The position numbers and the translations under genes were made by a program. A stretch of 31,186 nt of DNA from an uncultured Calditrichota bacterium (GTDB lineage: Bacteria; Calditrichota; Calditrichia; JAJRVZ01): assembly GCA_964445625.1 (NCBI GenBank), contig CAYULK010000002.1:1-31186 (forward strand). Reading direction: 5' to 3'. This document shows, one piece after another, positions 4,680 to 21,963 of this stretch; position 1 is the first letter of the stretch; each line of letters begins with the position of its first letter. The notes beneath the pieces are model-generated. The model saw only the letters and a list, made by a program, of their open reading frames with translations. It searched no databases and was not told the origin of the DNA.

Positions 4680-4784
4680 ACGTATCAATTGAGAGGGTTG
4701 AAAATTAATAAATCTTTCACTTTGAACATGTCTCCTAATAATTACGCTTAAAGTGATGAGATTTAATAACATAAATTATATAAA

Positions 4785-5738: not shown

Positions 5739-7059
5739 ATTGAGCGCTAAAAAACCGACGGTATTGTGTCTGTTTTGTTGGAAATCGGTTATTGAAATCT
5801 TCTTGTGTTATCGCACCATGCTGAAACCGGCGTTTTGGGAATACCGGCATTTTCAGCCCTGTAATAGCTTCCACACCTCTAGATACAATCTCACCTTTCA
5901 GTTGATACAATTTTTCGTGCTGCCATTGCGTTAAAGCGATAAAAGGTATGGTTTCAGCAATTTCAATGACGTTGGGAAGCGTGTAGGGGCTTAAGCCATC
6001 AAACCCAAACAGACTTTTCGGAGCATTAGTGCGGGTATAAGCCCGACTCAGACCCCCGGAGTAGGTGAGTGAATGTTTAATAGAATCTACACCCCAGCCT
6101 TCCTGGTAAAGCATCATATTATTAAAGACACTTCGAATTGTAAGTTCTGGATTTTCCTCAATGCTATAATCCTTTAAGTTTTCGTCTCCACCATCGCCAT
6201 CAATGAGATAGCACCATTCGGGATAGCGTTTGCGTATTCCACGGCATAGAGCTATATTCATCGATGCTGCCTGGATATCCAGTGGTTTGTAATCCTCCAC
6301 AACCCTGATGGCTTCCTGCCAGTTTACTTCATTAACGGAGACTTCAATGGGCTCTAAGAACAATGAAAGCCCAAGTTGTTCTAAAAAACGACGTGTCTGA
6401 ATTAAGTCATCACCGCCCCCCTGTACAGATAACGTAAAGGCTTTGAGTCGTGCAGGATTTAAACCAAGTTGCAACATAGCATGATAGGTTAATAAGAATA
6501 CCGAACCGCTGTCGATGCCCCCAGAGAAACAAACGCCAATGGGTCCTTCAATGGCTCTGTTCTGGAGCCATTTAACGATTTCCTGATACAATGTCTTTAT
6601 ATAAATTTTGCCGATTTCATTCTTATCCGGCTCCAGACATTTCTGATCAGGAGTAAAAAATCGATAGTAATTTGGATTTGGGTCAGGGCAACCAACGAGA
6701 GCAATTTCGGTAACATAATGGGCCGGCGCCATGCGTGTATAGGAAGGATGAAATTGATCTTCCAGCCCCTCGTTTTTCAGAAATTCAGCGATGGTATCAA
6801 TGCGTTCGGCTGCAACAAGCAAGGGCCCGTCTTCTTTTTTGGCGATGAAATAGCGCAAAGGCTGCCCAATTGAACGCGCCAGCCGCACAGACATGCCCTT
6901 CGGGGCAACTAAAGCAAATTGACCATCAATGGCCCGGACTCTATTGACGTCATCTGCGGCCACAAGTTCCCTGGCCTCCTCAACAGTCAGGTTATAGATA
7001 ATATTTTTTGAGTCATCCGTTAAATCAACTACACGTCTAATCGCTTGAGTGTTTTGCAA
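5731..7059 (-). CDS. Asparagine-synthase-like adenine nucleotide alpha-hydrolase (PP-loop) enzyme lacking the Ntn catalytic Cys
   Basis: PP-loop SGGIDSG (about aa 179-185) and IDGDGGDE (compare AsnB SGEGADE). TTG start 6 nt after GAGGG. Stop overlaps the radical SAM start (ATGAATGA). Confidence 0.82.
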   Translation of the reverse strand: MQNTQAIRRVVDLTDDSKNIIYNLTVEEARELVAADDVNRVRAIDGQFALVAPKGMSVRLARSIGQPLRYFIAKKEDGPLLVAAERIDTIAEFLKNEGLEDQFHPSYTRMAPAHYVTEIALVGCPDPNPNYYRFFTPDQKCLEPDKNEIGKIYIKTLYQEIVKWLQNRAIEGPIGVCFSGGIDSGSVFLLTYHAMLQLGLNPARLKAFTLSVQGGGDDLIQTRRFLEQLGLSLFLEPIEVSVNEVNWQEAIRVVEDYKPLDIQAASMNIALCRGIRKRYPEWCYLIDGDGGDENLKDYSIEENPELTIRSVFNNMMLYQEGWGVDSIKHSLTYSGGLSRAYTRTNAPKSLFGFDGLSPYTLPNVIEIAETIPFIALTQWQHEKLYQLKGEIVSRGVEAITGLKMPVFPKRRFQHGAITQEDFNNRFPTKQTQYRRFFSAQYE

Positions 7060-7310
7060 TTCATGCCCTCTGTTTCTATGCTAAAATGATTTGGTGACTA
7101 AAATAAATAAGCTATAAACGAAAGCACATTTGTTTTAATAGCCTTTTTGTTCCTTCTACTCCCAATCAAGGAAACCGTCTGAAAATCCCAACCATGTTCA
7201 TTCTGTAGAAATGTATGTATCATTATGCTTGACAATCAGGATATCTATAATTTATAAAAAAATTGTGACAATAGAAATTTCAGGTCAGGAGTAAATATTT
7301 TATGCCGGTT

Positions 7311-9416
7311 TTAATCCCGAACAGGTGCCAGGCGTTGGATGTCCTCTGCGGTGGCCGGTGTAAGACGTATCGCCTGACCACCGCCTGCTGCCAGACGCAA
7401 CGACAGTATGGTTTCGATATCAACCAGTACCTTCTTGATCTCTATGTCATAAGGATTGCTAATCCAATCTGCCATTTTTCCATCTCGATAAACCTCAGCA
7501 ACGTATTTCCTGGCAGGCTCCAGAAAGCCAAGCGGTAATTCCAAAACACGATCTTCCTCATCGGTGATACTACCGATATACCAATCTTCGCTATTTCGAT
7601 CCTGTCGGGCAATTGTAATGTAGTCGCCAATTTGAGCATGTATTACTTTGGTGTCCTGCCAGTCAGCTGGTACATCCAGGATGAATTGAAAAGCCGGTTG
7701 ATCCTCATAGTTTTCAGGCAGGTCGGCGGCCATCTGCAACGGGCTGTAAAGAACTACATATAGAGCCAGTTGTTTTGCCAGTGTTGTGTTGACCCGGTTA
7801 TTAGGGCGGGTCTCTTTAAGAATCAGGTCAAAAATTCCGGGTGTAAAATCCATGGGCCCGGCGAGCAATCGTGTAAACGGTAGAATAGTGGTATGGTCCG
7901 GTGGATTACCGCCATCCGGACCCCACGCATTGTATTCCTGACCCCTTGCTCCCTCACGAGTCATCATATTCGGATAAGTACGCCGGATACCGGTGTCCTT
8001 TATGGGTTCATGCGCATCCAGCATGATATGATATTTAGCCGCTGTCTCGACCACTTTTCTGTAATGTCGTACCATGTACTGGCCATGATGCCACTCCATT
8101 TGAATTGAATTATCATTTTCATCTATGCGTTTAATTCCCTGGCCCCAGCCGACATATCCTGTTTTAACTTTATCAATCCCTAGTTTGCGGTAATATTCGA
8201 AAGCATCCTCCATTTGTCGCTCATAGTTTATGACCGAAGCGCCTGTCTCGTGGTGACCAATAATCTGGATCCCTTTGCTTGCAGCGTAGGCGCTCAATTC
8301 TTTTATATCGAAATCTTCGTAGGGAGTCGTAAAATTGAAAAGTTCGCCATTCTGAGTCCAGTCGCCATCCCAGCCTACATTCCAGCCTTCAACAAGCACT
8401 CCCGGAAAACCATACTTAGCTGCAAAATCGATATATGCCTTGGTATTTTCAGTTGTCGCGCCGTGTTTCTTACCAGAGCCCCAGGTGTACTTGCCAATAT
8501 GCATGCCCCACCAGATGCCAATATATTTTTCCGGTTTAATCCATGAAACATCACCCAGTTTATTCGGTTCATTCAGGTTCAGGATGAGATAGGATGTGAT
8601 TAAATCACCGGCAGATTCAGCGATCTGAATCGTACGCCAGGGCGTTTGGAGTGGAGTGGAGGCTTTTACTTTGACACCATCGGACCAGGGGACAAGATCA
8701 CAAAGCAACGTGTTGTTTTTAAAACCTGCCAGGGTCATAGAGGCATAATTGGTAAGATTAGCCTCATGAATGCTTAAAAACAGACCGTCGGCAGTTTCGA
8801 TTGTCAATGGCGTATGGACTGCACGGATGGTATCGTTTGGAATTGAACTGATCGGAGATTTTTTATACAAGTACTCATAACGCTCGCGCTGGTAAGCCGG
8901 AATCCACCAGGCCTGATGGTCCCCTGTCATGGCAAATTCTGTCTCCTCATCCATGATCTGAAAGTCGTTGAGATGATTTTGTTCCGGCAACTCGTAGCGA
9001 AAACCGAGGCCATAGTCGTATACCCTGAAGACCAGGTTCATCTTGCGTGGGGTTTCGGTGGTCTCTTCGAGCTGAACTCGTAGTTCGTTATAATGGTTCC
9101 TGATTTCTTTTACCTCTCCCCAGGGTTGAAACCAGGTCTCGTCAAAGCTGCTTTTCTGAATCCCGATTTGAGTCAGGTTCTGGTTCAGGGGAGCGGCGTC
9201 TTTGAAAATAAAGCCCAGTTTAGAAGGTTTTATAATGTTCTTACCCGAACGGTTGACCTGATAGTAGGGCACCCCATCTTCAAGCGAAAGTGTGACTGTG
9301 ATCTCACCGTCAGGTGAGGAAACATAGAGACTTTCTTCTACACCTTGCTTACACTGAGTGAACAATAGCAGCAGAAGGATAAGTGTAAAAAGAGCAGGGA
9401 GTTTGTTATTATTCAT
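7311..9416 (-). CDS. susB: Glycoside hydrolase family 97 (SusB-like alpha-glucosidase/glucoamylase), probably the inverting subgroup
   Basis: GH97 motifs PWRTI, YIDFAA, HHET, VKTGYV, DAHE, REGARGQE, GPMDFTPG, YSPLQMAAD. N-terminal signal ending FTQC. Confidence 0.92.
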   Translation of the reverse strand: MNNNKLPALFTLILLLLLFTQCKQGVEESLYVSSPDGEITVTLSLEDGVPYYQVNRSGKNIIKPSKLGFIFKDAAPLNQNLTQIGIQKSSFDETWFQPWGEVKEIRNHYNELRVQLEETTETPRKMNLVFRVYDYGLGFRYELPEQNHLNDFQIMDEETEFAMTGDHQAWWIPAYQRERYEYLYKKSPISSIPNDTIRAVHTPLTIETADGLFLSIHEANLTNYASMTLAGFKNNTLLCDLVPWSDGVKVKASTPLQTPWRTIQIAESAGDLITSYLILNLNEPNKLGDVSWIKPEKYIGIWWGMHIGKYTWGSGKKHGATTENTKAYIDFAAKYGFPGVLVEGWNVGWDGDWTQNGELFNFTTPYEDFDIKELSAYAASKGIQIIGHHETGASVINYERQMEDAFEYYRKLGIDKVKTGYVGWGQGIKRIDENDNSIQMEWHHGQYMVRHYRKVVETAAKYHIMLDAHEPIKDTGIRRTYPNMMTREGARGQEYNAWGPDGGNPPDHTTILPFTRLLAGPMDFTPGIFDLILKETRPNNRVNTTLAKQLALYVVLYSPLQMAADLPENYEDQPAFQFILDVPADWQDTKVIHAQIGDYITIARQDRNSEDWYIGSITDEEDRVLELPLGFLEPARKYVAEVYRDGKMADWISNPYDIEIKKVLVDIETILSLRLAAGGGQAIRLTPATAEDIQRLAPVRD

Positions 9417-9455
9417 GATTTTCCTCTATATGGAAGATGATAAATTGGAATTTTC

Positions 9456-9485
9456 AATATAGACAACCTATGATTTTAAAGTCAA
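9456..9485 (-). promoter_or_regulatory. Putative sigma70-type promoter for the GH97 gene
   Basis: Minus strand TTGACT (9485-9480), 18-nt spacer, TATATT (9461-9456), about 40 nt upstream of the GH97 ATG. Confidence 0.5.
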
Positions 9486-9544
9486 GATGAAGGATACACT
9501 CATCCTGGTTGCACATAATAATTAGCGAATTGTTTGATTGTGGA

Positions 9545-12500
9545 TTATCTGGTCGTAATCTCATACACCTGATTCCAGTCATCATTCTTTGCAAAAATAA
9601 TTACCTCTTGTTTATTTCTATATCTAAGAGAAATCATATCCCGAACCTGGCCTGTCAAAGATAATCCACTATTCTGAATCGATACGGAGGTAAAGCTACC
9701 TGTACTATTTCCTATTAACAGAGTGCCGTAACTTGCATCGTATCTCCCGAGCTGGACATCGAGGCCATAGAAATTTCCAGCCAGGAGTAGATCCTTTGCA
9801 CCGTCAGCATTGAAATCTCTGGCCAAAATGGCATAAACAGGCGAAAACTGCGCCTCTGTGGGCAACGGTTGAATGCGGAATATTCCTTCCTCATTTCCAT
9901 AAAACACCGTTGTAGCGAATGTACCGGCTGTTTTAACAACTGCCTCATTTAGCTGTTCTGCGGAAAAAATATCTGTAATCTGCTTTCCGGCATAAGCAGC
10001 ATGAGTGGGAAATTTTTTCTTTAAATAGGGTAATTGCTTCATCAAATCCGGTCTTAATGGTAGGGGATAACTTTTCCCCAGTTTGTAATAGCATAGAATT
10101 TGTTCTATTAATCCATTTTTATCGAAATCGGATATGTAAATAGTCACGGGCTCGGATTGGGAGACCCGGATTTTAGAATTCTTGCCTAAATTACCGGCTA
10201 TCAGATCCACATACCCGTCCCCATTCAGATCATCCACTGTAACACAGTTCCACCAGCCATTGGTTTTCTCCAATCCAACTTTACCGGTAACATTGATCAG
10301 ACTATCTCCCGTATTTTTGAACAAGCTAACAGGCATCCATTCACCGACTACTACCAAATCCAGGTCTTTATCATTATCATAATCAAACCATTCTGCATCG
10401 GTTACCATACCCACATTTTTCAATTCTGGAGCATATTCCTCAGTGACTATCGAAAAATGTCCCTTACCATCATTCTCTAGCAGATAGCTAGTGGGTGAAA
10501 GTCCATATTTCCAGGGGATACTGCGGCTACCCACGAATAAATCCAAATCGCCATCACTATCAAAATCCCCCGGCACCACACATGAACCGCTGGAGCGAAT
10601 TCTCGGCAGGGCGTCGACAGACTGTGTAAAATCTCCTCTTCCGCTGTTGATATACAATCGGTCAATAAGGGCAGGCGCTGTCTTGGAATACTCATTGCCC
10701 CCGCTTACTACGTAAATGTCCAGGTCGCTATCTCCGTCCGCATCAAAAAAGGCGATTCCGACATCTTCGGAAATCTTTGCCTTTTGGAGCAGCAGTTCAT
10801 TGGTGTTTTTAAACTCTCCGGATACGGTCTGTACCAGTAATTTTCCCGCAGATCCTTTTGCGCCGCCGATGTATAAATCTTCCCATCCATCACCGTTTAT
10901 ATCACCTTTGGCTATTTTAGGTCCCTCGGTGGATAATTGATGAGGGATAAACAGTTCTCTTTGAAAATCGATAAATTCATTTTCAACATGTCGGTATTGT
11001 AGTGGTAACTCCTGGGAAATATCCCGAAAGATGGGATCTATATTTATGGGCAGATTCTGGGTATATAGTCGAGCATCTCTTTGATACAAGGTAAAAACCT
11101 GATCAACAGCCACATTCGTTTTGATATCTCTGGTTCCATCCGGCCAATCGACGATCAATGTATCTACCAGATTATTCTCTCCTAATCCGAAAGTGAGGAC
11201 ATAGTCAACAGAGGCCTGAAATCCCCTCATTGGTACCTGCTCCAGGACGAAGGTTTGCCGGTTGGCACATTGGAGTGTCACCTTCGATCCAATGGCAAAA
11301 GCGTTCATCCCTTCTCCAACCAGTTTCACCCTCAAATAATGATTGTCGGTCAGGGAATCGGCTTCGTTTCGATAGACAAAAGCCGGTTGATTGACATTGT
11401 TAATGACCAGGTCATTATCACCATCACCGTCCAGATCACCGTAAGCAACGCCATTCGAGAAGCTGGGAATATCCAATCCCCATTCCTTTGCCAGGTTAGT
11501 GAAAGTTAAATCTCCGTTATTACGAAAAGCATAATTTGAGAGTTTCGTGGAGGGAATTTTTCGTATGAGTTCGGGAAAATTGATGCGGTCGCCTTGTAAG
11601 ATTTTACGGATATTTTCTTTCTTCATAAGGTAGAAAAGATAGTCTTGGTCCGTGACATCCCGAAAAATTCCGGTTGAAACAAAGATATCCTTTAATCCGT
11701 CATTGTTTAAGTCTACAATCAACGCCCCCCAGCTCCAATCGGTCTCCGCCACACCGGCCAGCAGTCCAATTTCACTGAATAAAATTTGATGTTCTGGAGT
11801 GAAACCCCTGTTTAACTGTAGTACGTTCTGTGAAAATTGATGGTAATAGCCCCATTTGATTTTCTTTTTATTGAACTCAAAAGATTCAAAATTGAAGGTG
11901 GTTTTCAATCTGTAGTCATCTTCCGGTAGCATATCGGTTGCGAAAATATCCAGCAAGCCATCATTATTAAGATCGGCAATATCTCCACCCATAGAAGAGA
12001 GACTAATGTGTTGCATCATCTCTTCCAGTTTTTCTGTAAATGTGCCGTCATGATTATTGATATAAAGATAGTCCCGTTCGAAAAAATCATTGGCCACATA
12101 TATATCCGCCCACCGGTCATTGTTGATATCGCAAACCGATACTCCCAATCCAAACGTAATGACACTTCTAAAGATGCCTGCTTTTTCGCTAACATCCACG
12201 AATCTGCCATTATCATTTCGATATAACCAGTCTCCACCATTTTGATCCGGTTCATTGCGCAAATTTTTTGATAAATCAAAGGAGCTCATAGCCCGGAAAG
12301 CGTTATTAAGCACATAAAGATCTAAATCACCATCTTGGTCATAATCGAAGAAAGCAGCATGGGTGGAAAATCCCGGATTATCGATTCCGTATTCAGCCGC
12401 AGTTTCTATAAAGGTAGGTATACCATCTTCATTATTTCCCTGATTGAGAAAAAGCTCATTGGCTCGGTTGTCATCGTTGATGTTTCCAGAGTTGCAGACA

Positions 12501-12907
12501 TAAATATCCAGCTGTTGATCGCCGTTGATATCAACCAAACATACCCCAGTGGACCAGGTATGGCTTCCGGCAACTCCTGCTTGCTCCGTCACCTCCCTAA
12601 ACTGGAAATCACCTTGATTCAGGAATAATTTATTGGATTTCTGATTAGCGACCAGGTACACGTCAGGCAGGCCATCATTGTTGACATCTCCAATAGCCAC
12701 GCCACCGCCGTTATAGTAATTGCGATACTTAAAAACGTTAAAATCCGTTTCATCAACCAATGTATTTTCAAATTCCAGATCTGTATAATCACTGGGGAGC
12801 AAAGTAAACATACTATCAACGAGAATGTCAGGTGGTTTCTTATCACAGGAAGAGAGTAGAATAAGAATTATTCCACAAAGAAGGCAGATTATTTTCACTT
12901 TGTACAT
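9545..12907 (-). CDS. FG-GAP/VCBS-repeat + ASPIC/UnbV (CRTAC1-like) lipoprotein
   Basis: Lipobox LSSC at C21, many GDxNxDGxxD Ca-binding repeats, a central UnbV segment (IGSKVTL...RGFQAS...LTFGLG...VDWPDG), then a second set of FG-GAP repeats. Confidence 0.9.
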   Translation of the reverse strand: MYKVKIICLLCGIILILLSSCDKKPPDILVDSMFTLLPSDYTDLEFENTLVDETDFNVFKYRNYYNGGGVAIGDVNNDGLPDVYLVANQKSNKLFLNQGDFQFREVTEQAGVAGSHTWSTGVCLVDINGDQQLDIYVCNSGNINDDNRANELFLNQGNNEDGIPTFIETAAEYGIDNPGFSTHAAFFDYDQDGDLDLYVLNNAFRAMSSFDLSKNLRNEPDQNGGDWLYRNDNGRFVDVSEKAGIFRSVITFGLGVSVCDINNDRWADIYVANDFFERDYLYINNHDGTFTEKLEEMMQHISLSSMGGDIADLNNDGLLDIFATDMLPEDDYRLKTTFNFESFEFNKKKIKWGYYHQFSQNVLQLNRGFTPEHQILFSEIGLLAGVAETDWSWGALIVDLNNDGLKDIFVSTGIFRDVTDQDYLFYLMKKENIRKILQGDRINFPELIRKIPSTKLSNYAFRNNGDLTFTNLAKEWGLDIPSFSNGVAYGDLDGDGDNDLVINNVNQPAFVYRNEADSLTDNHYLRVKLVGEGMNAFAIGSKVTLQCANRQTFVLEQVPMRGFQASVDYVLTFGLGENNLVDTLIVDWPDGTRDIKTNVAVDQVFTLYQRDARLYTQNLPINIDPIFRDISQELPLQYRHVENEFIDFQRELFIPHQLSTEGPKIAKGDINGDGWEDLYIGGAKGSAGKLLVQTVSGEFKNTNELLLQKAKISEDVGIAFFDADGDSDLDIYVVSGGNEYSKTAPALIDRLYINSGRGDFTQSVDALPRIRSSGSCVVPGDFDSDGDLDLFVGSRSIPWKYGLSPTSYLLENDGKGHFSIVTEEYAPELKNVGMVTDAEWFDYDNDKDLDLVVVGEWMPVSLFKNTGDSLINVTGKVGLEKTNGWWNCVTVDDLNGDGYVDLIAGNLGKNSKIRVSQSEPVTIYISDFDKNGLIEQILCYYKLGKSYPLPLRPDLMKQLPYLKKKFPTHAAYAGKQITDIFSAEQLNEAVVKTAGTFATTVFYGNEEGIFRIQPLPTEAQFSPVYAILARDFNADGAKDLLLAGNFYGLDVQLGRYDASYGTLLIGNSTGSFTSVSIQNSGLSLTGQVRDMISLRYRNKQEVIIFAKNDDWNQVYEITTR

Positions 12908-12968
12908 AAAAGATATTTAGCCTGGTTAATTCATAGCGCAGCAATGCTGCAATCAAATTATTTAAGTA

Positions 12969-13097
12969 TCATGAAGAACACGAAGGTCACGAAGTTTTAA
13001 AAAATATTTATCCACAAATTTCACGAATTATCACGAATTAAAAAATATATTATAAAAAATCCGTGGAAATCCGTTTGATCCGTGTAATCCGCGTGCC
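12969..13097. repeat. Intergenic short-period repeat with imperfect inverted arms (CACGAAT units facing ATCCGTG units)
   Basis: CACGAAG twice, exact TCACGAATTA tandem at 13021-13040, an AT-rich centre, then ATCCGT three times plus ATCCGC at 9-10 nt period. Confidence 0.75.
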
Positions 13098-13323
13098 ATT
13101 AATATCATTGCATCTTTGCTATATATATTCTCAGAGAGTAAAAGTTTTGCTAATCTCCCAGGCGATCCGTTGGAAATAACAAAGTTTTTAGCAGTAATAG
13201 CATAATTATTAGATTTATCAAATAACGACAGTAAAGCCCCTTTTGCTAAGGAGGGCTTAAATCGTTGATTATATGTTCCTTATACCCTTAAAACATCGGT
13301 TTTTTGAATAATTCAGGTTAATT

Positions 13324-13363
13324 GAAAAAAAAATAAACGGCCCTAAAAATCGGGGCCGTTTAT
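13324..13363 (-). terminator. Rho-independent terminator downstream of susD
   Basis: 11-bp inverted repeat ATAAACGGCCC (13333-13343) / GGGCCGTTTAT (13353-13363), followed on the minus strand by a T run. Confidence 0.8.
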
Positions 13364-13403
13364 AGACAAATTGTAGTAGAATAAAAATACTACGATATTA
13401 CAA

Positions 13404-14933
13404 TTAATATCCCGGATTTTGTGTCAGGTTGGGATTTGCATCCAACTGACTCTGCGGGATGGGAAAGATTCGTCTATACGGGCCATCACTTGCGGGTTTT
13501 AATGTCCATGCATCGAGAAAGTGCCCGGTTCTAACCAGATCTTGACGACGGAAACCCTCCCATAACATCTCAAAACCACGCTCATCAAGAATGCGATCCC
13601 GCAATTCTTTTTTAGTACTGAAATCAGCAAGAGAAAGTGGCACAAAAGGGTCAAAGCAACGTACCCTTACCGAGTCAATCAGGTCGAGACTTTCCTGGTT
13701 AGGCCCGTTGATTTCGTTCAAGGCTTCCGCTTTGCTGAGCAGGACATGCGGATAGCGAAAAATGGCGAAGTCATTCCCGGCATTTCCGCCACTCATATCA
13801 GGATCCACCTCCCACTTAAGGATGCGCACGCCATTTGATTCATTGGCGCCGAACAGGGGAGATTCTACAGTAAAATTCAATGTATCACCCTGGCGATCGA
13901 ATGCCTGGTCGCCTGCATTTGGCCCGCCTAAGACAAATTGAGGACCTACCAGCATATGGATAAAACGTACATCGCTGGTGTCGTAACTATTATAAAAGTC
14001 GGCCAGGACGGAAAATCCATTCCAAGGAGTCTGAGGCAACTGGTTGTAATGTAAGGTAGCCATGAAGCGTAAAAATCCCGAACCATCTAATGCCTTATTG
14101 GCAGTAACCAGAATGTTCTCTGGGTTATCAGGTCCTTCATTGGCCAGTTTGAAGTTATCCGCATATTTGGGCAACAGTTCATACAGGCCTGAATTAATTA
14201 CTGCGTTACAGGCCAATACACATTCATTCCACTTTGGTGTTCCGGTATAAACCTCGGCATTCAGATAAACTGTGGCTAGAAAAGTATTGGCAGCCCCTAA
14301 AGTTAACCGGCCGTAACTTTCCCGTCCAAATGTGTCTTTAATATCCGGCAATGCAGCTTCAACTTCTGCTACGATAAAATCGAATACTTCCTGCCTGGTA
14401 TTGGGAGTTGGAGGATTGTTCGGATCCGGGGATGCGGTAGTGACTATCGGCACCCCGCCGTATAGATCTATCAGCAACCAATAAAAATAGGCCCTAAGCA
14501 CTCTTACTTCCGCAATAGCGACGGGAATGAGGGCCGAGCCGCTGGTCGAGGTCTGTAAGTTTTCCAGGGTTGCATTGGCTCGTGCTACGCCAGTGAAATA
14601 ATCTTTCCATCCTCCATCTACGGCAGAGTTGGTAGCGTCCCAGTTATGTTCCTGCAATTGCCGCCACTTTCCTCCGTCATCCCAATCTCCGCCTCGCGTA
14701 GGTACAAATATCTCATCCGAGGATACTTCCTGCATGTGTATTCCTTCACCCCAGGACAATGTGCGGAGACTGCTATAGACCGGGACCACTGCCGCGATTA
14801 ACTCTTGCTCCGTTTTATAAAAATTATCCGGTGTTACCGAACTAAATGGCGACTCTGAGAGATCGGTACAGTTTGAAAAGATCATTAAAATTAAAAGGAA
14901 CGCCGGCAGAAAAAGAAATCTATGATTATTCAT
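13404..14933 (-). CDS. susD: RagB/SusD family nutrient-binding outer-membrane lipoprotein
   Basis: Lipobox FSNC; SusD hallmarks (Y.GVARAN, AEVRVLRAYFYWLLIDLYGGVP, FRYPHVLLSKAEA, ERGFEMLWEGFRRQDLVR, C-terminal NPNLTQNPGY); directly downstream of susC. Confidence 0.95.
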   Translation of the reverse strand: MNNHRFLFLPAFLLILMIFSNCTDLSESPFSSVTPDNFYKTEQELIAAVVPVYSSLRTLSWGEGIHMQEVSSDEIFVPTRGGDWDDGGKWRQLQEHNWDATNSAVDGGWKDYFTGVARANATLENLQTSTSGSALIPVAIAEVRVLRAYFYWLLIDLYGGVPIVTTASPDPNNPPTPNTRQEVFDFIVAEVEAALPDIKDTFGRESYGRLTLGAANTFLATVYLNAEVYTGTPKWNECVLACNAVINSGLYELLPKYADNFKLANEGPDNPENILVTANKALDGSGFLRFMATLHYNQLPQTPWNGFSVLADFYNSYDTSDVRFIHMLVGPQFVLGGPNAGDQAFDRQGDTLNFTVESPLFGANESNGVRILKWEVDPDMSGGNAGNDFAIFRYPHVLLSKAEALNEINGPNQESLDLIDSVRVRCFDPFVPLSLADFSTKKELRDRILDERGFEMLWEGFRRQDLVRTGHFLDAWTLKPASDGPYRRIFPIPQSQLDANPNLTQNPGY

Positions 14934-14960
14934 ATCTTGTCCTCCTATTCTCTTATTAAT

Positions 14961-17900
14961 CTATTTAAAGCCAATGTTTAAACCGATAGAAATGGTCCGG
15001 GCTCGGGGATAATTAGTATAGTCTACTCCGAGAGTAGCCACCGGGCCTCCGTTCTGCGCAATGGTGTTGACTTCCGGATCCAAGCCCTGGTAATCGGTCC
15101 AGATAAACAGATTATCGGCAGCCACGTAAACACGCAATTTTCTAAAAAAGGTAGTTTCAAAGGTGTACCCTATAGTTATGTTCTGCAAGCGGATATATGA
15201 TCCGTCTTCTATGAATCTGTCGGTATATTTAACCTGAGCCTGGGGGTCCATTCCATTTGCGACATCATCCAGTGCTCCGTGAAAGAGATTAATACCATTA
15301 AAAACATTGGAAGGCCGCTGGTATTCCAGACGGGTATTATTCAGGAGTTCAAATCCATGTACCCCCTGAAAGAAGAACAGAAAGTCAAAACCCTTCCAAG
15401 CCGTTATACTCGAGAAGCCCCAGGTAAAATCCGGCCGGGCGTTTCCTAAAACAAACCTGCCGTCATTAAGAGGTCCACCGGTGGTTGTTATTATTTCATT
15501 TCCATCGTCATCAAATCCCAGGAAACGAGGACCGAAGAATGTACCCAATGGCTGGCCGGGTAGGATAATTTGTGCCTGTACACCGGATAGTCCGGCGCCA
15601 CTAACCCTTCCGGTGGTAATATATTCCCGGCCTCCTAAATTGAGCACTTTATTTGAATTTGTGGCAAAATTAAATGTGGATCGCCAGAAAAGATCTCCCG
15701 AAGAGAGATTTATGGTATTCAGCGATATCTCAAGACCCTTATTCTCAACTTCTCCTGCATTTGCCAGCACGGTCGCTACCACTGCCGGTTGCGGGACATC
15801 AAAATTAATTAACAAATCCTTGGTTTTTTTGCTATAGACATCAATAGAACCTGAGATTCTGTTTTCCAGGAAACTGAAGTCTAATCCCAGGTTTATCTGG
15901 CTGGTTTCCTCCCATTTCAGATCGGGATTGGCCAACTGGGTCGCTGATACACCGGTTACTACCTTGTCTCCGATAACAGCATTGGCTCCCGGACCAAGGA
16001 TAACCAATGAATTATAATTACCAATATCCTCGTTTCCGGTGATGCCATAACTGAGTCTTAATTTTAAGTCATTCAAGATTTTAACATCTTTTAAAAATGA
16101 CTCTGACGAGAGACGCCATCCTACCGCAGCGGAAGGGAAGGTACCCCATTTATTCCCTTCTCCAAAGCGGGAAGATCCTTCATAGCGGAGGGCCAGATTG
16201 AACAGGTACTTATTATCAAGGCTATAAATGCCGCGCCCAAGAAAAGAAATCAAGCGATTATCTGCCCTGTAGGACCACGGTGAAACTGTAAAATCAGCTC
16301 CGCCTCCGAGGTTATTGGTTGACCAGGCGTCTGTGACAAAGTTTTGCGCAGTTGTCCCAAACCCCGAACTTTCGAATTCCTGGTAAGTATATCCTGCCAG
16401 GACTTCCAAGTCCTGATTACCACCGAGATTCGGTTGATACTTACCTGTTGCCTCAAAAAGTACATTTTTTGTGTCTGTACTTACGACATCGGCTCTTCCG
16501 CCAAAGGTCGCCGCATATGGTATACTATTTGGTTGATAAATGGACCGGGAAGCGTCGCTCCGGTCAAATCCAAAATTTATCCTTCCGGTTAATTCCGGAA
16601 TGAAGTCATATTCCACATTGAAATTGGCAAAAATCTGCATATTCTCGGATTGATCTTCGATAAGCTCAACCATGGCCACCGGGTTGCGGATATCGGGGCT
16701 GGCATAAGCATAAAAGGATCCATCGCTGTTCTTTACAGGGAGGGTAGGATTATGCTTTAAAACGTTGGTGAATAGTCCGCCCCGGAAACCCCCGATTTGT
16801 CGATACGGTGTGTTATTACGTGTGATGTAACTGGGATTTAAGCGCAAGCCCAATCGTAGTGTATTATCGTACATTTTATGCATAATGTTGAAACGGGCGG
16901 AAACTCTTTGTCGCGCGGAATTGAGTATAATACCCTGTTCATCAAGGTAGTTCAGTGAAACCAGGTATGTGGTAGTCGCGCTGCCGGAACTGTAAGAAAG
17001 AGTATGGCTCTGCGAATAGGCTGTTCTGGCAATTTCATCCTGCCAGTCCGTGTTGGCTGTTCCCATTTCGGGGGTTGCGCCTACCTGTGCCGCATAATCT
17101 CTGTATTCCTGGGCGCTTAATAAGTCATATTTACCATACTGACTTGAAGTGCTGGCAAAACCTGAGTAATTCAGGGCGGAGCCACCGGGTTGTCCACTCT
17201 TGGTTGTAATCAGGATCACGCCGTTTCCACCCCGGGCGCCATAAGTAGCAGCTGAAGAAGCATCCTTTAAAATATCAATAGATTCGATATCGTTGGGATC
17301 CAAATTACTGAGCGGGTTATCTCGTAGACCACCAGCAGGGTTGTCCTCGCCGGTTCCACCGCTAAGTCCCGTTGGATCAAACGTGGGAGTGGCTGAAACA
17401 TTTGCAACCGGTACACCGTCAATTACATACATCGGCTCGTTCGAAGCCGAAACAGATGTACCGCCCCTTATACGAATCATGGGCGCAAAGCCCAGATCTC
17501 CATTGCCCGTAACAATCTTTACACCGGCTATCCGGGACTGTGCCAGTTGCATAGGATTGGTAATGGCACCCCTGTTGAAATCTTGAGGACTCAAGGTGCC
17601 TATGGCATTGGTAACATCTTTCCGTTGCTGGGTGCCATACCCAATGACCACGATAGCTTCCGCAGAAAAGGCCTGAGGAATCAAACGAACATTAATCTCC
17701 TTACGGTCACCGACTGTTTCTTCCACATCTGTAAAACCCACGTACATAAAAACTAGTGTGTCCTGAGGAGAAACATCTTCCAGGAGATATACACCATCTA
17801 AATCTGTAGATGCTCCCTGCTGCGTATGCTTCACGATAACATTTGCTCCTGGTAGGGGGCTCCCATCTTCTGCGGAAATGATTACCCCTGTAACGCTAAT

Positions 17901-18351: not shown

Positions 18352-18691
18352 GAAAAAATATAAATAACTGTAAAAAGGTCATGAAACCCCGAAAATAGGG
18401 GCTGATGGGGACATGGATTATGACTTTGCTATGGCCATATACTAAAATGTAACTAACCAAGTTCTGTGGGATCAGGCCGGAATACTTCTATTTGTATTTA
18501 AAATAACAAGAATTTCGCTTTAATAATTGTAATAAAAATTTATCAAAATTAATTTGGAAAATAATCACTATATTTTGTAAAATCATGGGGCTATGCTAGT
18601 CAAACCCCTAAATAATTACGCTGTGTACTCTGCCTGCCCGGCTCAGACGGTTGATTATTTTTTCACTACCATTAAATATATAAGAGATAAA

Positions 18692-19258
18692 ATGAGATCA
18701 TTCAAACTTAAACAACGGATTATTAGGAGAATAGGGATTATATCTATTCTCGGTCTTTTTCTGATATCATGCGGCTCGTCGGTTCGTGTCCAATTTGATT
18801 ATCTTGAGGGTCATGATTTTAAACCCTATAAAACCTTCGATTTTTTGGTGGCACCCAATGATCTTCAAATGCATGATAAATCAATCCGGCGGATTAAAAA
18901 TGCAGTCATAAACGAACTGGAATTAAACGAATTTGAGATGAAATTTACTCAGCCTGATTTCTTAATTGCTATCCAGAAGAGTGTTGATTCAAAAATCAAC
19001 GTGACTAATTGGGGATATACATACGCACCATATAGCAATTATTACGGCGGATATGAATACTGGGGAACGCCAAGTATGAGTGTCTATAAATATGAGGAGG
19101 GAACCCTGGTTATTGACATTATCGATCCAAAGACGATGGATCTGATTTGGAGAGGGGTGGCGCAAAGAGCACTCCCACCCCGGCTTGATTCCGAACGGAT
19201 TCAGGAAATTATTAATGAAGCCGTACGCAGAGTACTTTATTACTGGCCACCGGATTAA
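18692..19258 (+). CDS. DUF4136-like lipoprotein
   Basis: Likely start ATG 18692 with lipobox LISC; motifs YKTFDF, PDFLI, YEEGTLVIDIID...LIWRG typical of DUF4136. Stop overlaps the convergent kinase stop (TTAA, 19255-19258). Confidence 0.82.
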   Translation: MRSFKLKQRIIRRIGIISILGLFLISCGSSVRVQFDYLEGHDFKPYKTFDFLVAPNDLQMHDKSIRRIKNAVINELELNEFEMKFTQPDFLIAIQKSVDSKINVTNWGYTYAPYSNYYGGYEYWGTPSMSVYKYEEGTLVIDIIDPKTMDLIWRGVAQRALPPRLDSERIQEIINEAVRRVLYYWPPD

Positions 19259-21963
19259 TTGTTGAGGGGCAAAGTTATAATAAACTGGCATGATCTTTCC
19301 GGTTTAAAAGAAACGGAAATTTCACCATCCAATTGAGTAATTTTTTCCTTTACAATATCCATCCCGACCCCGCGACCAGAGAGCATACTGGTATTTCCTG
19401 CTGTTGAAATTCCCGAGATAAAGATGGTTTCTGTAATTTCCTCATCAGTCCATTTAGAAATGATATCTTTATCCCATTTTCCCAGGGAAATAGCCCGGTC
19501 CCTGAGTCTGTCAATCTGTAAACCACGTCCGTCATCTTTGATCCATATCTGTAGTTTGTCTTTATCCATCTTCGTACTCAACTCAATGATGCCAGCCGGA
19601 TCTTTACCCTTTTGGATTCTCTCTTCCGATGATTCAATACCATGGGCAATCGAATTGCGTATCAGTTGGATCAGAATTTCTTTTACCGTTGTTTTATAGC
19701 CATGTGGTATGGCATTAAAGTCAAAATTTTTCTCAACTAATTCGACATTATTTTCAAGTTCCCGGCTATTTTGCCTAATAAACCGGCGCAGGGAATCGAT
19801 AAATAATTTATTTTCATACTTGCGTTTTGGTCGGAACTGAGCATGAATCCGGCCAATTTTATCGATCAGACTGATCACTTCCTGGTAATTTTGTTTTATT
19901 TCCAGAAGTTTTACCTGAATATTTCTGACATCGCTTTCGGCAATGATCGTTTTGTTACGCAGATGGTCGATGATATGTTCGAAGGCATGCGCTTCTTCAG
20001 CAAAAATTGTCAAATCAAGCAGGCCGGCATTACCCTTGATCAGATGCGCGGACCGGAATACTTCTTCCAGAATTTTTTCATTTTTTCCTTCCTGTTTTAA
20101 TTCAGAAAGAAGTTCTTCCATTTTTTCCAGTTCGACGCTGGCGCTGTCTATAAATTCAGTTAACATTACCGGATCGACCCTGAGAAGGACGAGCACAATT
20201 TCCAGCTGATTTTTTGTCTTGGCTTCTGATCGTTTTAATTTTTCAGCCAGCAGTACCTGGTCCGTATTATCGATGACGGTGACCATCAATTCGTTAATTT
20301 TTCCGGCACGGTTGAGTATTCTCTGAAAATTAAAATCGAGATGCTTCAGCTGTTTTTCTTCTGAACCAGATCCGTCTAAGTGGACTTCGACTCTACTGAG
20401 CGGATTCAATTCGCGAATCATGTTCTGTTCAAATTCATTATTGAACATCAGTTCCAGGAACTCAGCTGTTAAACCCAGGGTATCATTGGGAACTTTATTC
20501 TCCAGGATATCCAGAAATTTTTTATTGCCAAGTGAGTTCCGGAAAAAGATTGATTCCAGTTCAGCAGAATACTGGGATTTGATTTTGTAATCAGAACCGA
20601 GCAGGAATATACCTTCTTCCACATGGCGCAGGATATTATCGGTTTGTTTTTTGGCCTCTTCAAGATGGCTCTTGGAGCGTCGGAGTTCATCTTCAACCCG
20701 TTTGCGATCTGTAATATCCCGGACAATACTGATCATTGATTTGCGGTTTTCATACATTATTTCATCAGATATAACCTCCACTTCTAGTTTCTTACCTGAT
20801 TTTGTAATATGATTAAAGTGAAAGGGAAAATTTTTATTTTTAATATTAATACTTTTTTCCAGCTTTCTGTGATCTTTCGGATCGTGCAGGTCAAAGGGTG
20901 TTAAAGATTTTATCTCTTGTGGCGTATAGCCATATACTTTCTCGACAGCACGATTACATCCCAGATAGCTATGGGTTTTTTTATCATAAATCAGGACCGG
21001 ATCAGCAATTCTGTTAAATAATTTAAAATATTTATTCTGACTTTCATCGACCGGATTTTCGGAACTGTCTGCCAGATTATCCACATCAAGCGGGGTTCCG
21101 TTACTCTGTGAGCTGTGAAAGAGGTAAGCAGCGCCAAGAATGCCTATATTTGGCTCTTCATTAACATCCACCTTTAGCTTGTTAAGCGCTTGCTTGTACG
21201 GACTGGCCGATACCGTTTGCCACATGGCATCGAAAAAAAACTTAAAAGCCTTTCTAATCGATCCGCCAATAATCACCAGATCAGGATCGACAGTATACAT
21301 AATGGTCAGAATTGCAGCACCCACATGCCGGCCAAACACATTAAATATCTGTTTTGCTTCTTCATCACCTGATTGTGCGCGATTTAAGATTTCTTCAAAG
21401 GGCTTGCCATATTGGTCATCGAAAAAAATCTCTGAACAATAGCTCTCAAAACTACCTTCTTTATATGGAATTTTACCAAATTCACCGGCACCACAGCTGG
21501 ACCCGGGAATAAGTTTGCCATCGATGATCAATCCGGCGCCCATACCGGTGCCAAGAATCAGACCAACAATATTATTGTATTCACGTCCTTTACCAAAATA
21601 TTTTTCACCCAGTACGTAGCAATTCGCATCGTTATTGATATGAACAGGGCATTTGAATTGTGCCTCGAGTACTTTTTTCAGGTGAATTTCATGCCATGCC
21701 GGAATATTTTTTGCATTGTAAACGATGCCTTCTTTTACATCCACCTGGCTGGGAACTCCGATCCCAATTCCTGAAAGGTCCTTTGAGTAGACCTTTTTTA
21801 TTACGCCCACCAATTTATCCAGGATATATTTTTCTGATTCGCGGCCGGATATTTTTGTGTTGTGGAATATTTTTATTTGATTATTTTTAACCAATCCGGC
21901 CCGAACTACGGTACCTTCAAAATCCACACCGATCACCGGATTATTTTTTTGATTTTCATTCAT
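19255..21963 (-). CDS. Multidomain sensor histidine kinase: ROK - PAS/PAC - PAS - Hpt - CheA-type HATPase
   Basis: ROK aa 9-283 (GIGIGVP, NNDAN, LGTGMGAG, GAGEFG, GGS). PAS/PAC aa about 311-425 ending IVRDITDRK; second PAS-like aa about 440-570. Hpt AHLIKG (His640). N box LIRNSIAHGIE, G1 DDGRG, F box FISGIST, G2 SGRGVGMD. No transmembrane segment and no CheW domain. Confidence 0.9.
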   Translation of the reverse strand: MNENQKNNPVIGVDFEGTVVRAGLVKNNQIKIFHNTKISGRESEKYILDKLVGVIKKVYSKDLSGIGIGVPSQVDVKEGIVYNAKNIPAWHEIHLKKVLEAQFKCPVHINNDANCYVLGEKYFGKGREYNNIVGLILGTGMGAGLIIDGKLIPGSSCGAGEFGKIPYKEGSFESYCSEIFFDDQYGKPFEEILNRAQSGDEEAKQIFNVFGRHVGAAILTIMYTVDPDLVIIGGSIRKAFKFFFDAMWQTVSASPYKQALNKLKVDVNEEPNIGILGAAYLFHSSQSNGTPLDVDNLADSSENPVDESQNKYFKLFNRIADPVLIYDKKTHSYLGCNRAVEKVYGYTPQEIKSLTPFDLHDPKDHRKLEKSINIKNKNFPFHFNHITKSGKKLEVEVISDEIMYENRKSMISIVRDITDRKRVEDELRRSKSHLEEAKKQTDNILRHVEEGIFLLGSDYKIKSQYSAELESIFFRNSLGNKKFLDILENKVPNDTLGLTAEFLELMFNNEFEQNMIRELNPLSRVEVHLDGSGSEEKQLKHLDFNFQRILNRAGKINELMVTVIDNTDQVLLAEKLKRSEAKTKNQLEIVLVLLRVDPVMLTEFIDSASVELEKMEELLSELKQEGKNEKILEEVFRSAHLIKGNAGLLDLTIFAEEAHAFEHIIDHLRNKTIIAESDVRNIQVKLLEIKQNYQEVISLIDKIGRIHAQFRPKRKYENKLFIDSLRRFIRQNSRELENNVELVEKNFDFNAIPHGYKTTVKEILIQLIRNSIAHGIESSEERIQKGKDPAGIIELSTKMDKDKLQIWIKDDGRGLQIDRLRDRAISLGKWDKDIISKWTDEEITETIFISGISTAGNTSMLSGRGVGMDIVKEKITQLDGEISVSFKPERSCQFIITLPLNN

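What the first reader, a model, noticed from the sequence alone, without database searches (positions are those of the whole stretch)
19255..21963. ROK sugar-kinase fold fused to PAS-PAS-Hpt-HATPase: candidate cytoplasmic sugar-sensing histidine kinase
Seen: one uninterrupted 902-aa frame joins a full ROK domain (aa 9-283), a low-complexity linker, two PAS domains, an Hpt with His640 and a CheA-type ATPase, with no transmembrane segment. Established: ROK domains normally occur as sugar kinases or in HTH repressors (NagC, XylR, Mlc) that bind sugars allosterically. I do not recognise ROK as an input domain of a histidine kinase. Inference: this is a soluble sensor converting intracellular sugar level into phosphotransfer. 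Its position about 1.3 kb from an alpha-glucan-type SusCD/GH97 locus suggests glucose or a related hexose as ligand.
Basis: partly seen in the sequence, partly recalled or inferred. Interest (0 to 1): 0.88.

Follow-up and report, generated by a model that had tools for sequence, protein, structure and literature searches.

The report
ROK sugar sensor on CheA-type kinase
A soluble bacterial signalling kinase carries, as its input, a sugar-kinase-like (ROK) domain that has kept its sugar pocket but lost its ATP loop, which makes it a rare and untested candidate sensor of sugar inside the cell, built on an already named but unstudied kinase class.

Summary
Window 19255-21963 (-) is one 902-aa frame: ROK, a disordered linker, PAS, a second divergent PAS (seen only by structure prediction), Hpt with His640, and a CheA-type ATPase. 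It has no membrane segment, no CheW domain and no dimerisation domain. It is not a chimera: contigs from independent metagenome studies bridge the ROK-PAS joint, and 22 related fusion proteins exist.

The fusion is rare, about 10 clusters among 1.84 billion representatives, and arose once. All 22 fused ROK domains have lost the glycine of the DxGxT ATP loop, which all 24 free-standing relatives keep. The sugar-contact residues (N111, D112, E161, E173) stay nearly invariant. ROK repressors show the same signature, so the domain most likely senses sugar and does not phosphorylate it.

The kinase core matches the "class III histidine kinases" (Adebali et al. 2017). That definition is recalled from memory, because the paper could not be read here. 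This scan has met that class before on other DNA, but never with ROK.

In relatives, ROK-kinases sit in arrays with a Reg_prop/Y_Y_Y kinase, CheY-like regulators, CheX and a dead kinase, which points to a CheY-like partner. The SusCD/GH97 argument for glucose fails, because that adjacency is missing in the 75%-identical ortholog. The ligand is unknown.

The parts
19255..21963 (-). Whole gene: 902-aa soluble ROK-PAS-PAS-Hpt-HATPase kinase (P0001)
   Evidence: full-length AlphaFold2 model with mean pLDDT 87.2
21103..21936 (-). ROK domain (aa 10-287), zinc-less subtype; predicted non-catalytic sugar-binding sensor
   Evidence: Pfam ROK E 6e-43; best PDB sequence and fold matches are zinc-less NanK 5nck (TM 0.86), BglK 4htl and ROK repressor Lmo0178; pLDDT about 96
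21910..21924 (-). Degenerate phosphate-1 ATP loop D-F-E-G-T (aa 14-18) in place of DxGGT; Glu16 replaces the conserved Gly
   Evidence: Position 16 is D/E/S in 22 of 22 fused domains and Gly in 24 of 24 stand-alone relatives. Position 18 is Thr in 4 of 22 versus 23 of 24
21445..21636 (-). Sugar-pocket residues: N111 and D112 (within NNDA, 21625-21636), E161 (21481-21483), K164 (21472-21474, in place of the canonical His), E173 (21445-21447). No CxCGxxGC zinc cluster
   Evidence: Conserved in fused domains: N111 22/22, D112 21/22, E161 21/22, E173 20/22. They map to the five GNE sugar residues N, D, E, H, E (PMC2742894)
21040..21102 (-). Low-complexity, Pro-containing linker (aa 288-308), predicted disordered
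   Evidence: pLDDT below 50 at residues 289-308. In most other family members this stretch reads like a helical heptad linker, judged by eye
20710..21039 (-). PAS domain 1 (aa 309-418)
   Evidence: Pfam PAS_9 E 3.6e-10; TIGR00229 E 3e-15
20266..20616 (-). PAS domain 2 (aa 450-566): a divergent PAS that belongs to the conserved kinase module
   Evidence: AlphaFold2 model of aa 440-575, pLDDT 89.5; all top Foldseek hits are PAS/LOV; present in all 63 aligned family members, including ones without ROK
20173..20265 (-). Long connecting helix (aa 567-597) between PAS2 and Hpt
   Evidence: Helix 567-595 in the model
19843..20172 (-). Hpt four-helix bundle (aa 598-707) with phospho-acceptor His640 (codon 20044-20046)
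   Evidence: Pfam Hpt E 8.5e-10; matches CheA P1 structures; H640, K643, G644 and N645 are invariant in 17 family members
19264..19821 (-). CheA-type (P4) ATPase domain (aa 715-900) with intact N box (19630-19668), G1 (19522-19536) and G2 (19357-19377). No P3 domain before it and no CheW/P5 after it
   Evidence: PDB hits to CheA P4, E about 1e-29; motif table; no H-kinase_dim or CheW hit, although both are detected in the true CheA of the same genome

Best explanation
The gene encodes a cytoplasmic sensor kinase of the CheW-less, sensor-fused CheA-derived type (class III histidine kinase). Its N-terminal input is a ROK domain that has become a pseudokinase. It keeps the hexose-binding pocket, has lost the ATP phosphate loop, and therefore binds a cytoplasmic monosaccharide without phosphorylating it, as the ligand domain of a ROK repressor does.

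Proposed mechanism: sugar-induced closure or re-pairing of the ROK dimer is passed through PAS1, PAS2 and the long helix 567-595 to the Hpt-ATPase pair. This changes ATP-dependent phosphorylation of His640. The phosphoryl group then goes to a single-domain CheY-like regulator encoded elsewhere, probably the one that serves the paralogous kinase arrays and is reset by CheX.

Shown: the architecture, the intact kinase motifs, the loss of the ATP loop together with retention of sugar residues, the single origin of the fusion, and the array context in relatives.

Inferred: ligand binding, the coupling between domains, the partner and the output. The identity of the sugar is unknown.
For: 1. Architecture and folds.
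2. Catalytic H, N, G1 and G2 boxes are intact.
3. The ATP loop is lost specifically in fused domains. Position 16 is Gly in 0 of 22 fused versus 24 of 24 stand-alone. Thr18 is kept in 4 of 22 versus 23 of 24. The phosphate-2 Thr139 is kept in 12 of 22 versus 24 of 24. Meanwhile N111, D112, E161 and E173 are kept in 20-22 of 22.
4. [quoted passage not shown] PMC2742894 defines the five sugar residues.
5. The fused ROK domains form one clade (support 97/92) nested among canonical stand-alone ROKs.
6. In relatives, ROK-kinases lie between a Reg_prop/Y_Y_Y kinase and CheY, CheX and a pseudokinase, with another CheY upstream. The window's own genome holds the start of such an array, a CheY-like gene followed by a Reg_prop ORF cut by the contig end.
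7. The gene is real and recurs in vent, sediment and seep metagenomes.
Against: - No biochemical data exist for any member.
- In this particular protein only Glu16 departs from DxGGT. Thr18, the phosphate-2 GTG and the adenosine GG are present, so residual nucleotide binding cannot be excluded from sequence.
- The ROK-PAS1 linker is predicted disordered and contains prolines here and in the ortholog. That is a poor conduit for a mechanical signal.
- This gene has no response regulator or CheX within the window, and none was seen near its closest orthologs.
- The same-family ortholog in G002 (P0008) is truncated inside the ATPase domain, so some orphan copies may be decaying.
- No CheX was found in the window's genome, which is only 68% complete.
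Confidence: 0.6

Rival explanations
1. The ROK domain is still an active sugar kinase. The protein would then be bifunctional, an enzyme whose catalytic turnover reports sugar flux to the histidine kinase, in the way hexokinase-type glucose sensors work.
For: The catalytic Asp112, the phosphate-2 GTG and the adenosine GG motif are present in this protein, and Thr18 is retained. The closest structural relatives are true kinases (5nck, 2qm1).
Against: The Gly of DxGxT is replaced in 22 of 22 fused domains, by Asp or Glu in 20 of them. Thr18 and Thr139 vary freely across the family, which indicates no selection for nucleotide binding. From established knowledge of ASKHA phosphate-1 loops, that Gly is essentially universal in active members.
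Confidence: 0.12
2. The ROK domain has no small-sugar ligand. It would serve as a dimerisation scaffold, replacing the missing P3 domain, or as a protein-docking module, as Mlc docks on EIIB.
For: The protein lacks any dimerisation domain. ROK proteins are typically dimers, and Mlc is regulated by protein binding; both points are from established knowledge, and Mlc structures are among the fold hits.
Against: Four sugar-contact residues are nearly invariant over 22 fused domains that are only 35-75% identical overall, which a pure scaffold would not require. Family members without ROK work with the same core, so ROK is not needed for dimerisation.
Confidence: 0.15
3. This orphan copy is a decaying or functionless paralog of the array-borne ROK-kinases.
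For: It has no partner genes nearby. Its ROK-PAS linker is disordered and proline-containing, unlike most relatives. The same-family ortholog P0008 is truncated.
Against: The 902-aa frame is intact, with every kinase motif and sugar residue kept. The orphan subfamily (P0001, P0002, P0004-P0007) is conserved at 48-75% identity over its full length in several genomes and environments.
Confidence: 0.08
4. The ROK-kinase joint is an assembly chimera.
For: The window comes from a fragmented genome bin (372 contigs, 68% complete).
Against: Independent contigs from different studies bridge the joint with no joints or indels. Twenty-two clusters from independent assemblies share the fusion.
Confidence: 0.01

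Closest known systems
Class III histidine kinases (HKIII; Adebali, Petukh, Reznik, Tishkov, Upadhyay and Zhulin, J Bacteriol 2017, 199:e00218-17). The citation was confirmed in the reference list of PMC6501615. The paper itself is not held, so its content is given from memory and from earlier scan notes.
   Same: Hpt plus CheA-type ATPase. The protein carries its own sensory domains. It has no dimerisation (P3) domain and no CheW domain. Paralogs in relatives sit with a single-domain response regulator and CheX.
   Different: The input is a ROK pseudokinase, which I found described nowhere. The protein is soluble. This copy is an orphan without an adjacent CheY or CheX. No pilT above the curated cut-off was found in five genomes of this lineage, whereas, as I recall it, the paper reports pilT in all HKIII genomes.
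CheA (class II chemotaxis kinase)
   Same: P1/Hpt with the HxxKG phospho-site, and a P4 ATPase that aligns to T. maritima CheA at E about 1e-29 with N, G1 and G2 boxes.
   Different: It lacks P3 and P5, which the CheA survey PMC10782961 finds in all CheA homologs, and it has input domains, which CheA lacks. The true CheA of the same genome (contig C6) has 3 Hpt, H-kinase_dim, CheW and REC.
ROK transcription regulators (NagC, Mlc, XylR, Thermotoga ROK regulators; Lmo0178)
   Same: The same logic: a ROK fold kept as a sugar-binding sensor with the kinase DxGxT motif altered (PMC3553997). Lmo0178 is among the best fold matches (TM 0.80).
   Different: The output is a histidine kinase rather than an N-terminal winged-helix DNA-binding domain. 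The zinc cluster, which those regulators largely conserve, is absent here.
Zinc-less ROK sugar kinases (F. nucleatum NanK 5nck; Listeria BglK 4htl) and the stand-alone ROKs of about 285 aa in FCB-group bacteria
   Same: Best sequence and fold matches. There is no Cys cluster. They share NNDANC, GAGEFG and the conserved Glu. The stand-alone relatives are 40-48% identical.
   Different: They keep canonical DxGGT[K/N] and the phosphate-2 Thr, and they are single-domain enzymes. The nearest ones follow an MFS transporter, and in two cases a GH2 gene as well.
Bacteroides hybrid two-component systems with Reg_prop/Y_Y_Y periplasmic glycan sensors
   Same: The neighbouring kinase in the arrays uses the same Reg_prop/Y_Y_Y sensor, which gives the arrays a carbohydrate theme.
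   Different: Those systems use a classical HisKA kinase, a receiver and an AraC output in one protein. Here the propeller is wired to an Hpt + CheA-type core and a separate CheY.

Membership tests
ROK family (Pfam PF00480) | Significant match to the ROK profile, and the ROK/ASKHA two-lobe fold | tested here: met
   147.8 bits against a cut-off of 22.9; Foldseek TM 0.75-0.86 to ROK structures
ROK family (Pfam PF00480) | Zinc motif GHx(9-11)CxCGxxG(C/H)xE | tested here: not met
   There is no Cys cluster, and His is replaced by Lys164. The three other ROK genes of the same genome have the full motif. Solved ROK kinases such as 5nck and 4htl also lack the cluster in the printed alignments.
ROK sugar kinase (active enzyme) | ATP-binding motif DxGxT | tested here: not met
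   The motif reads D-F-E-G-T. Gly is replaced in 22 of 22 fused domains, and Thr is kept in only 4 of 22. The motif definition comes from PMC2742894 and PMC3553997.
ROK sugar kinase (active enzyme) | Catalytic Asp and sugar-contact residues (N, D, E, H, E) | tested here: met
   N111, D112, E161 and E173 are present and nearly invariant. The His position is Lys164, so four of five are met.
ROK sugar kinase (active enzyme) | Measured sugar phosphorylation | not testable with these tools
   Needs an enzyme assay
CheA (class II histidine kinase) | P1 Hpt domain with phospho-acceptor His | tested here: met
   Pfam Hpt; His640 in HxxKG; matches CheA P1 structures
CheA (class II histidine kinase) | P3 dimerisation domain (H-kinase_dim) | tested here: not met
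   No PF02895 hit. The alignment to P3P4 structure 4xiv starts after P3. The model shows only a 7-residue gap between the last Hpt helix and the first P4 helix. Positive control: PF02895 is found in the genome's true CheA.
CheA (class II histidine kinase) | P4 CheA-type ATPase | tested here: met
   E about 1e-29 to T. maritima CheA P4; N, G1 and G2 boxes intact
CheA (class II histidine kinase) | P5 CheW-like domain, and no input domain of its own | tested here: not met
   The protein ends at the ATPase domain with no PF01584 hit, and it carries ROK and two PAS domains. Criteria are from PMC10782961.
Class III histidine kinase (HKIII; definition recalled, paper not readable here) | Hpt plus CheA-derived ATPase, with sensory domains and without a dimerisation domain | tested here: met
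Class III histidine kinase (HKIII; definition recalled, paper not readable here) | Works with a single-domain response regulator and CheX encoded nearby | tested here: inconclusive
   Not met at this locus or at its orthologs' loci. Met for the paralogous ROK-kinases in arrays of relatives. The own genome has the CheY-like gene plus a Reg_prop start of an array, but no CheX was found in the 68%-complete bin.
Class III histidine kinase (HKIII; definition recalled, paper not readable here) | pilT present in the genome | tested here: not met
   TIGR01420 gave no hit over its cut-off in G000, G001 (93% complete), G002, G004 (91%) and G007 (95%). The only hit was one below the cut-off, in G007.
Classical (class I) histidine kinase | HisKA/DHp domain carrying the phospho-His next to the ATPase | tested here: not met
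   No HisKA-type Pfam hit. The His lies in an Hpt bundle.

The most novel reading that the evidence does not exclude
In non-flagellated, apparently pilT-less FCB-group bacteria (probably Calditrichota) of vents and marine sediments, several CheA-derived kinases with direct carbohydrate sensors converge on one CheY/CheX pair. One is a periplasmic Reg_prop/Y_Y_Y propeller kinase and one is a cytoplasmic ROK pseudokinase kinase, and a dead-kinase paralog may modulate them. The resulting receptor-free 'chemosensory' circuit would compare extracellular glycan with intracellular sugar and drive an output that is neither flagellar nor type IV pilus motility. The derived acidic residue at position 16 and the derived basic or amide residue at position 164 would form a cross-cleft latch that replaces ATP in closing the ROK domain on its sugar.
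Probability: 0.3. Interest if true: 0.8.

Novelty: new variant of a known kind. Interest (0 to 1): 0.55.

Why it matters
ROK domains are known as sugar kinases and as the ligand domains of repressors. This finding shows the same fold recruited a third way, as the input of a phosphorelay kinase, with the same evolutionary signature as in repressors: the ATP loop is discarded and the sugar pocket is kept.

Direct cytoplasmic sugar sensing by a two-component kinase is rarely documented. This protein is soluble and modular, with a clear ligand-pocket hypothesis, so it can be tested directly in vitro.

It also extends the input repertoire of the experimentally unstudied class III kinases. Its array context (propeller kinase, ROK kinase, CheY, CheX, pseudokinase) in organisms where no flagellar switch or pilT was found raises the question of what such CheY-type circuits control.

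Tried and rejected
- Chimera or misassembly: rejected.
- SusCD/GH97 adjacency as a clue to the ligand: rejected, because it is not conserved in the 75%-identical ortholog or in other homologs.
- A conserved neighbour of the orphan subfamily: none found. A DUF4136 lipoprotein gene lies within 7 kb in three loci, which I read as residual synteny.
- CheA membership: rejected, since P3 and P5 are absent.
- Flagellar chemotaxis as the output: no FliM in five genomes.
- Type IV pilus output: no pilT over the cut-off in five genomes.
- Taxonomy from GH97 homologs: inconclusive. The names are mixed (FCB group, Calditrichaeota, Marinimicrobia, Fidelibacterota, Chloroflexi). No rpoB marker hit (PF04563) was found in the incomplete bin.
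- The genome-contig scan returned ROK-only or core-only matches and no further named genome with the full fusion.
- Literature searches for a ROK-histidine kinase fusion: nothing found.
- The HKIII paper could not be read by DOI or by PMC id.
- A profile search of PAS2 against PDB sequences found nothing. Only the fold search identified it.
- Assigning the sugar from NCBIfam equivalogs failed. All ROK hits (glucokinase, NagK, AlsK, BglK) are far below their cut-offs.
Full report
**1. What is there**

The window holds one uninterrupted 902-aa frame on the minus strand, 19255-21963. Pfam finds ROK (aa 11-284, E 6e-43), one PAS (321-419), Hpt (600-688) and HATPase_c (759-901). NCBIfam and PDB sequence searches align aa 722-900 to the P4 ATPase of CheA at E about 1e-29, and aa 603-693 to CheA P1. 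His640 lies in RSAHLIKGNAG, the HxxKG phospho-site. No segment is hydrophobic enough for a membrane helix.

A full-length AlphaFold2 model built on 73 relatives has mean pLDDT 87.2. It gives this layout:
- ROK, aa 10-287
- a disordered linker, aa 289-308
- PAS1, aa 309-418
- a helix, aa 428-447
- a confident beta2-alpha4-beta3 domain, aa 451-565
- a long helix, aa 567-595
- a four-helix Hpt bundle, aa 598-707
- after about seven residues, the ATPase domain, aa 715-899

A separate model of aa 440-575 (pLDDT 89.5) matches only PAS and LOV structures, with TM-score up to 0.70. There is no CheA P3 hairpin and no CheW/P5 domain. Both are detected by the same tools in the genuine CheA of the same genome on contig C6. 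The H, N, G1 and G2 boxes are intact.

**2. It is real**

The ROK-PAS joint lies at nt 21030-21114. It is bridged by a contig of run X1 (identical) and by one of run X4 from another study (29 substitutions, so a different strain), with no joints or indels. The stretch occurs in hydrothermal-vent, marine-sediment and cold-seep metagenomes from at least five studies. A 75%-identical full-length ortholog lies on a 345-kb contig of a same-genus genome.

**3. How common**

Among 5.8 billion clusters, about 18 proteins in the first search combine ROK with this kinase core. Four further fusions came from the second search and were included in the motif tables. An exhaustive HMMER pass over 1.84 billion representatives at 50% identity finds about 10 such fusions.

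The C-terminal module of about 480 aa (PAS2, helix, Hpt, ATPase) is by contrast a large family. It occurs with many other N-termini: Reg_prop/Y_Y_Y, GAF, PAS, 7TMR-DISM, CBS, cNMP-binding and MASE6.

**4. The ROK domain looks like a sensor, not an enzyme**

Its best sequence and fold matches are NanK 5nck (TM 0.86), BglK 4htl and the ROK repressor Lmo0178. In the printed alignments 5nck and 4htl lack the Cys cluster, as this domain does.

I compared 22 fused ROK domains with 24 free-standing relatives of 270-300 aa (40-48% identical), taken from the protein searches and from named genomes.

| Position | Fused (n=22) | Free-standing (n=24) |
|---|---|---|
| 16, the Gly of DxGxT | Gly in 0 (Asp 12, Glu 8, Ser 2) | Gly in 24 |
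| 18, the Thr of DxGxT | Thr in 4 | Thr in 23 |
| 139, phosphate-2 Thr | Thr in 12 | Thr in 24 |
| N111 (sugar contact) | 22 | 24 |
| D112 (sugar contact, catalytic Asp) | 21 | 24 |
| E161 (sugar contact) | 21 | 24 |
| E173 (sugar contact) | 20 | 24 |

The four sugar positions correspond to the GNE residues N516, D517, E566 and E588 in PMC2742894. Position 164, the canonical zinc and sugar His, is Lys, Arg or Gln in 20 of 22 fused domains but varies in the free-standing ones.

A maximum-likelihood tree puts all fused domains in one clade (support 97/92) nested among canonical free-standing ROKs. The only 'free' sequence inside that clade, P0191, also has a degenerate loop. So the fusion arose once, and the ATP loop changed at or after that event.

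[quoted passage not shown] The fused domain carries the same signature. From general knowledge of ASKHA phosphate-1 loops, that Gly is essentially universal in active members, so an acidic side chain there should hinder phosphate binding.

Caveat: in this particular protein Thr18, the phosphate-2 GTG and the adenosine GG are still present. Loss of nucleotide binding is therefore an inference from the family pattern.

**5. Context and partner**

In the window the gene is flanked by a convergent DUF4136 lipoprotein gene, which overlaps it by 4 nt, and by a divergent operon of TetR, a LolA-like gene, two FtsX genes and an ABC ATPase. The SusC/SusD/FG-GAP/GH97 locus begins 1.3 kb beyond the DUF4136 gene. 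No response regulator is present.

The same-genus ortholog keeps the TetR side but has entirely different genes on the other side (a beta-lactamase-fold protein and multihaem cytochromes). More distant homologs have unrelated neighbours. The SusCD/GH97 adjacency therefore carries no information about the ligand.

A search of 40 related genomes showed something else. A second lineage of ROK-kinases (ROK-PAS-GAF-core or ROK-PAS-core, 765-1274 aa) lies in conserved arrays. In the order seen in L108 and, on the opposite strand, in L107, the array reads:
- a CheY-like regulator (125 aa)
- a Reg_prop/Y_Y_Y-Hpt-ATPase kinase (1320-1386 aa)
- the ROK-kinase
- a CheY-like regulator (122-124 aa)
- CheX (148 aa)
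- a core-like protein of about 480 aa whose G2 box is lost, and whose phospho-His is Tyr in one case

Arrays without the ROK member also exist, for example L111.

The window's own genome is a 68%-complete bin of 372 contigs. It holds a CheY-like gene 58% identical to the array regulator, followed by a Reg_prop ORF cut by the contig end. This looks like the start of such an array. It also holds a Reg_prop/Y_Y_Y-GAF-core kinase on C46 and a PAS-core kinase on C114 cut at its N-terminus. No CheX was found.

The most likely partner of the window's kinase is thus a single-domain CheY-like regulator encoded elsewhere. This rests on homology to the array paralogs and nothing more.

No FliM was found in five genomes, and no pilT above the curated cut-off, including three genomes that are 91-95% complete. 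The output is unknown.

**6. Ligand**

No NCBIfam equivalog reaches its cut-off. The free-standing ROKs closest to the fused clade (L015, L016, L017, L019) each follow an MFS transporter. In L015 and L017 a GH2 enzyme with exo-beta-glucosaminidase and mannosidase-type domains comes before the transporter. This weakly suggests that the ancestral substrate was a mannose- or glucosamine-type hexose. I regard the ligand as undetermined.

**7. Comparison with what is known**

By the criteria of the CheA survey PMC10782961, all CheAs have P1, P3, P4 and P5 and no input domain. This protein is not a CheA.

It matches the class III histidine kinases of Adebali et al. 2017: sensor-bearing, no dimerisation domain, used with a single-domain regulator and CheX. 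I could confirm the citation but could not read the paper. None of them involves ROK.

I tested the class's recalled features here. The core features are met. The CheY/CheX neighbourhood is met only for paralogs. The pilT association is not met.

The ROK part works like the ligand domain of ROK repressors but is wired to a kinase. I found no paper describing a ROK-histidine kinase fusion.

**8. Verdict**

This is a real, rare, single-origin fusion. The kinase class is known from genomics and untested experimentally. The ROK pseudokinase input is, as far as I could establish, undescribed. I file it as a new variant of a known kind.

The sugar-sensor mechanism is well motivated by sequence evolution but unproven, and I give it 0.6. 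The organism is an uncultured FCB-group bacterium, probably Calditrichota, judging from named relatives of the kinase family. Its taxonomy was not resolved here.

Noticed in passing
L107 (G001:C8) 6102-17364; L108 (G007:C19) 3259-13853; L111 (G036:C1) 6066-12718: Conserved arrays of paralogous CheW-less kinases. The order is: CheY-like regulator, Reg_prop/Y_Y_Y kinase, (ROK-PAS-GAF kinase), CheY-like regulator, CheX, then a core-like protein of about 480 aa. The ROK-kinase appears as an optional middle member.
   Followed up: partly
L108:12420-13853 (+); L111:6066-7535 (-): The core-only array members of about 480 aa have no Pfam hits and a destroyed G2 box. One has Tyr in place of the phospho-His. 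They are probable pseudokinases. An earlier scan note made the same point about a related operon.
   Followed up: partly
ROK positions 16 and 164 (window 21916-21918 and 21472-21474): In the fused clade position 16 became acidic (20 of 22) and position 164 became Lys, Arg or Gln (20 of 22). Neither change is seen in free-standing relatives. The two may form a co-evolved cross-cleft pair.
   Followed up: no
G000 contig C165:1-2873 (locus L113): A CheY-like gene (122 aa, 58% identical to the array regulator) is followed by a signal-peptide Reg_prop protein cut by the contig end. This is probably the start of the kinase array in the window's own genome.
   Followed up: partly
G000 contig C114:7687-9357 (locus L007): A PAS-PAS-Hpt-HATPase kinase whose N-terminus runs off the contig end. 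It could be a second ROK-kinase of this genome.
   Followed up: no
G000 contig C6:523-4338 (locus L010): A genuine CheA with three Hpt domains, H-kinase_dim, CheW and a receiver (ChpA/FrzE-like), in a genome where no MCP, FliM or pilT was found. The bin is 68% complete.
   Followed up: no
L015:5811-10861; L017:6090-10894; L016 and L019 around 8100-10860: The free-standing ROK kinases nearest the fused clade lie directly after an MFS transporter. In two cases a GH2 exo-beta-glucosaminidase/mannosidase-like gene comes first. This suggests a small uptake-and-phosphorylation operon.
   Followed up: partly
window 19255-19258 and 18593-19258: The kinase gene and the convergent DUF4136 lipoprotein gene overlap by 4 nt at their 3' ends. 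A DUF4136 gene also lies within 7 kb of the kinase in L001 and L002.
   Followed up: no
window 19258 compared with L001:12709 onward: Synteny with the same-genus genome breaks exactly at the 3' end of the kinase gene. The TetR/LolA/ABC side is shared, and the SusCD/GH97 side is replaced by beta-lactamase-fold and multihaem cytochrome genes.
   Followed up: partly
G002:C6:61383-63746 (locus L097; protein P0008): The same-family ortholog (51% identity) ends inside the ATPase domain (804 aa). This is either a frameshift or a decaying copy.
   Followed up: no
protein P0191 (293 aa): The only 'stand-alone' ROK inside the fused clade. Its loop reads I-F-L-G-G-K, without the Asp. It may be a truncated gene call or a secondary split of the fusion.
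   Followed up: no
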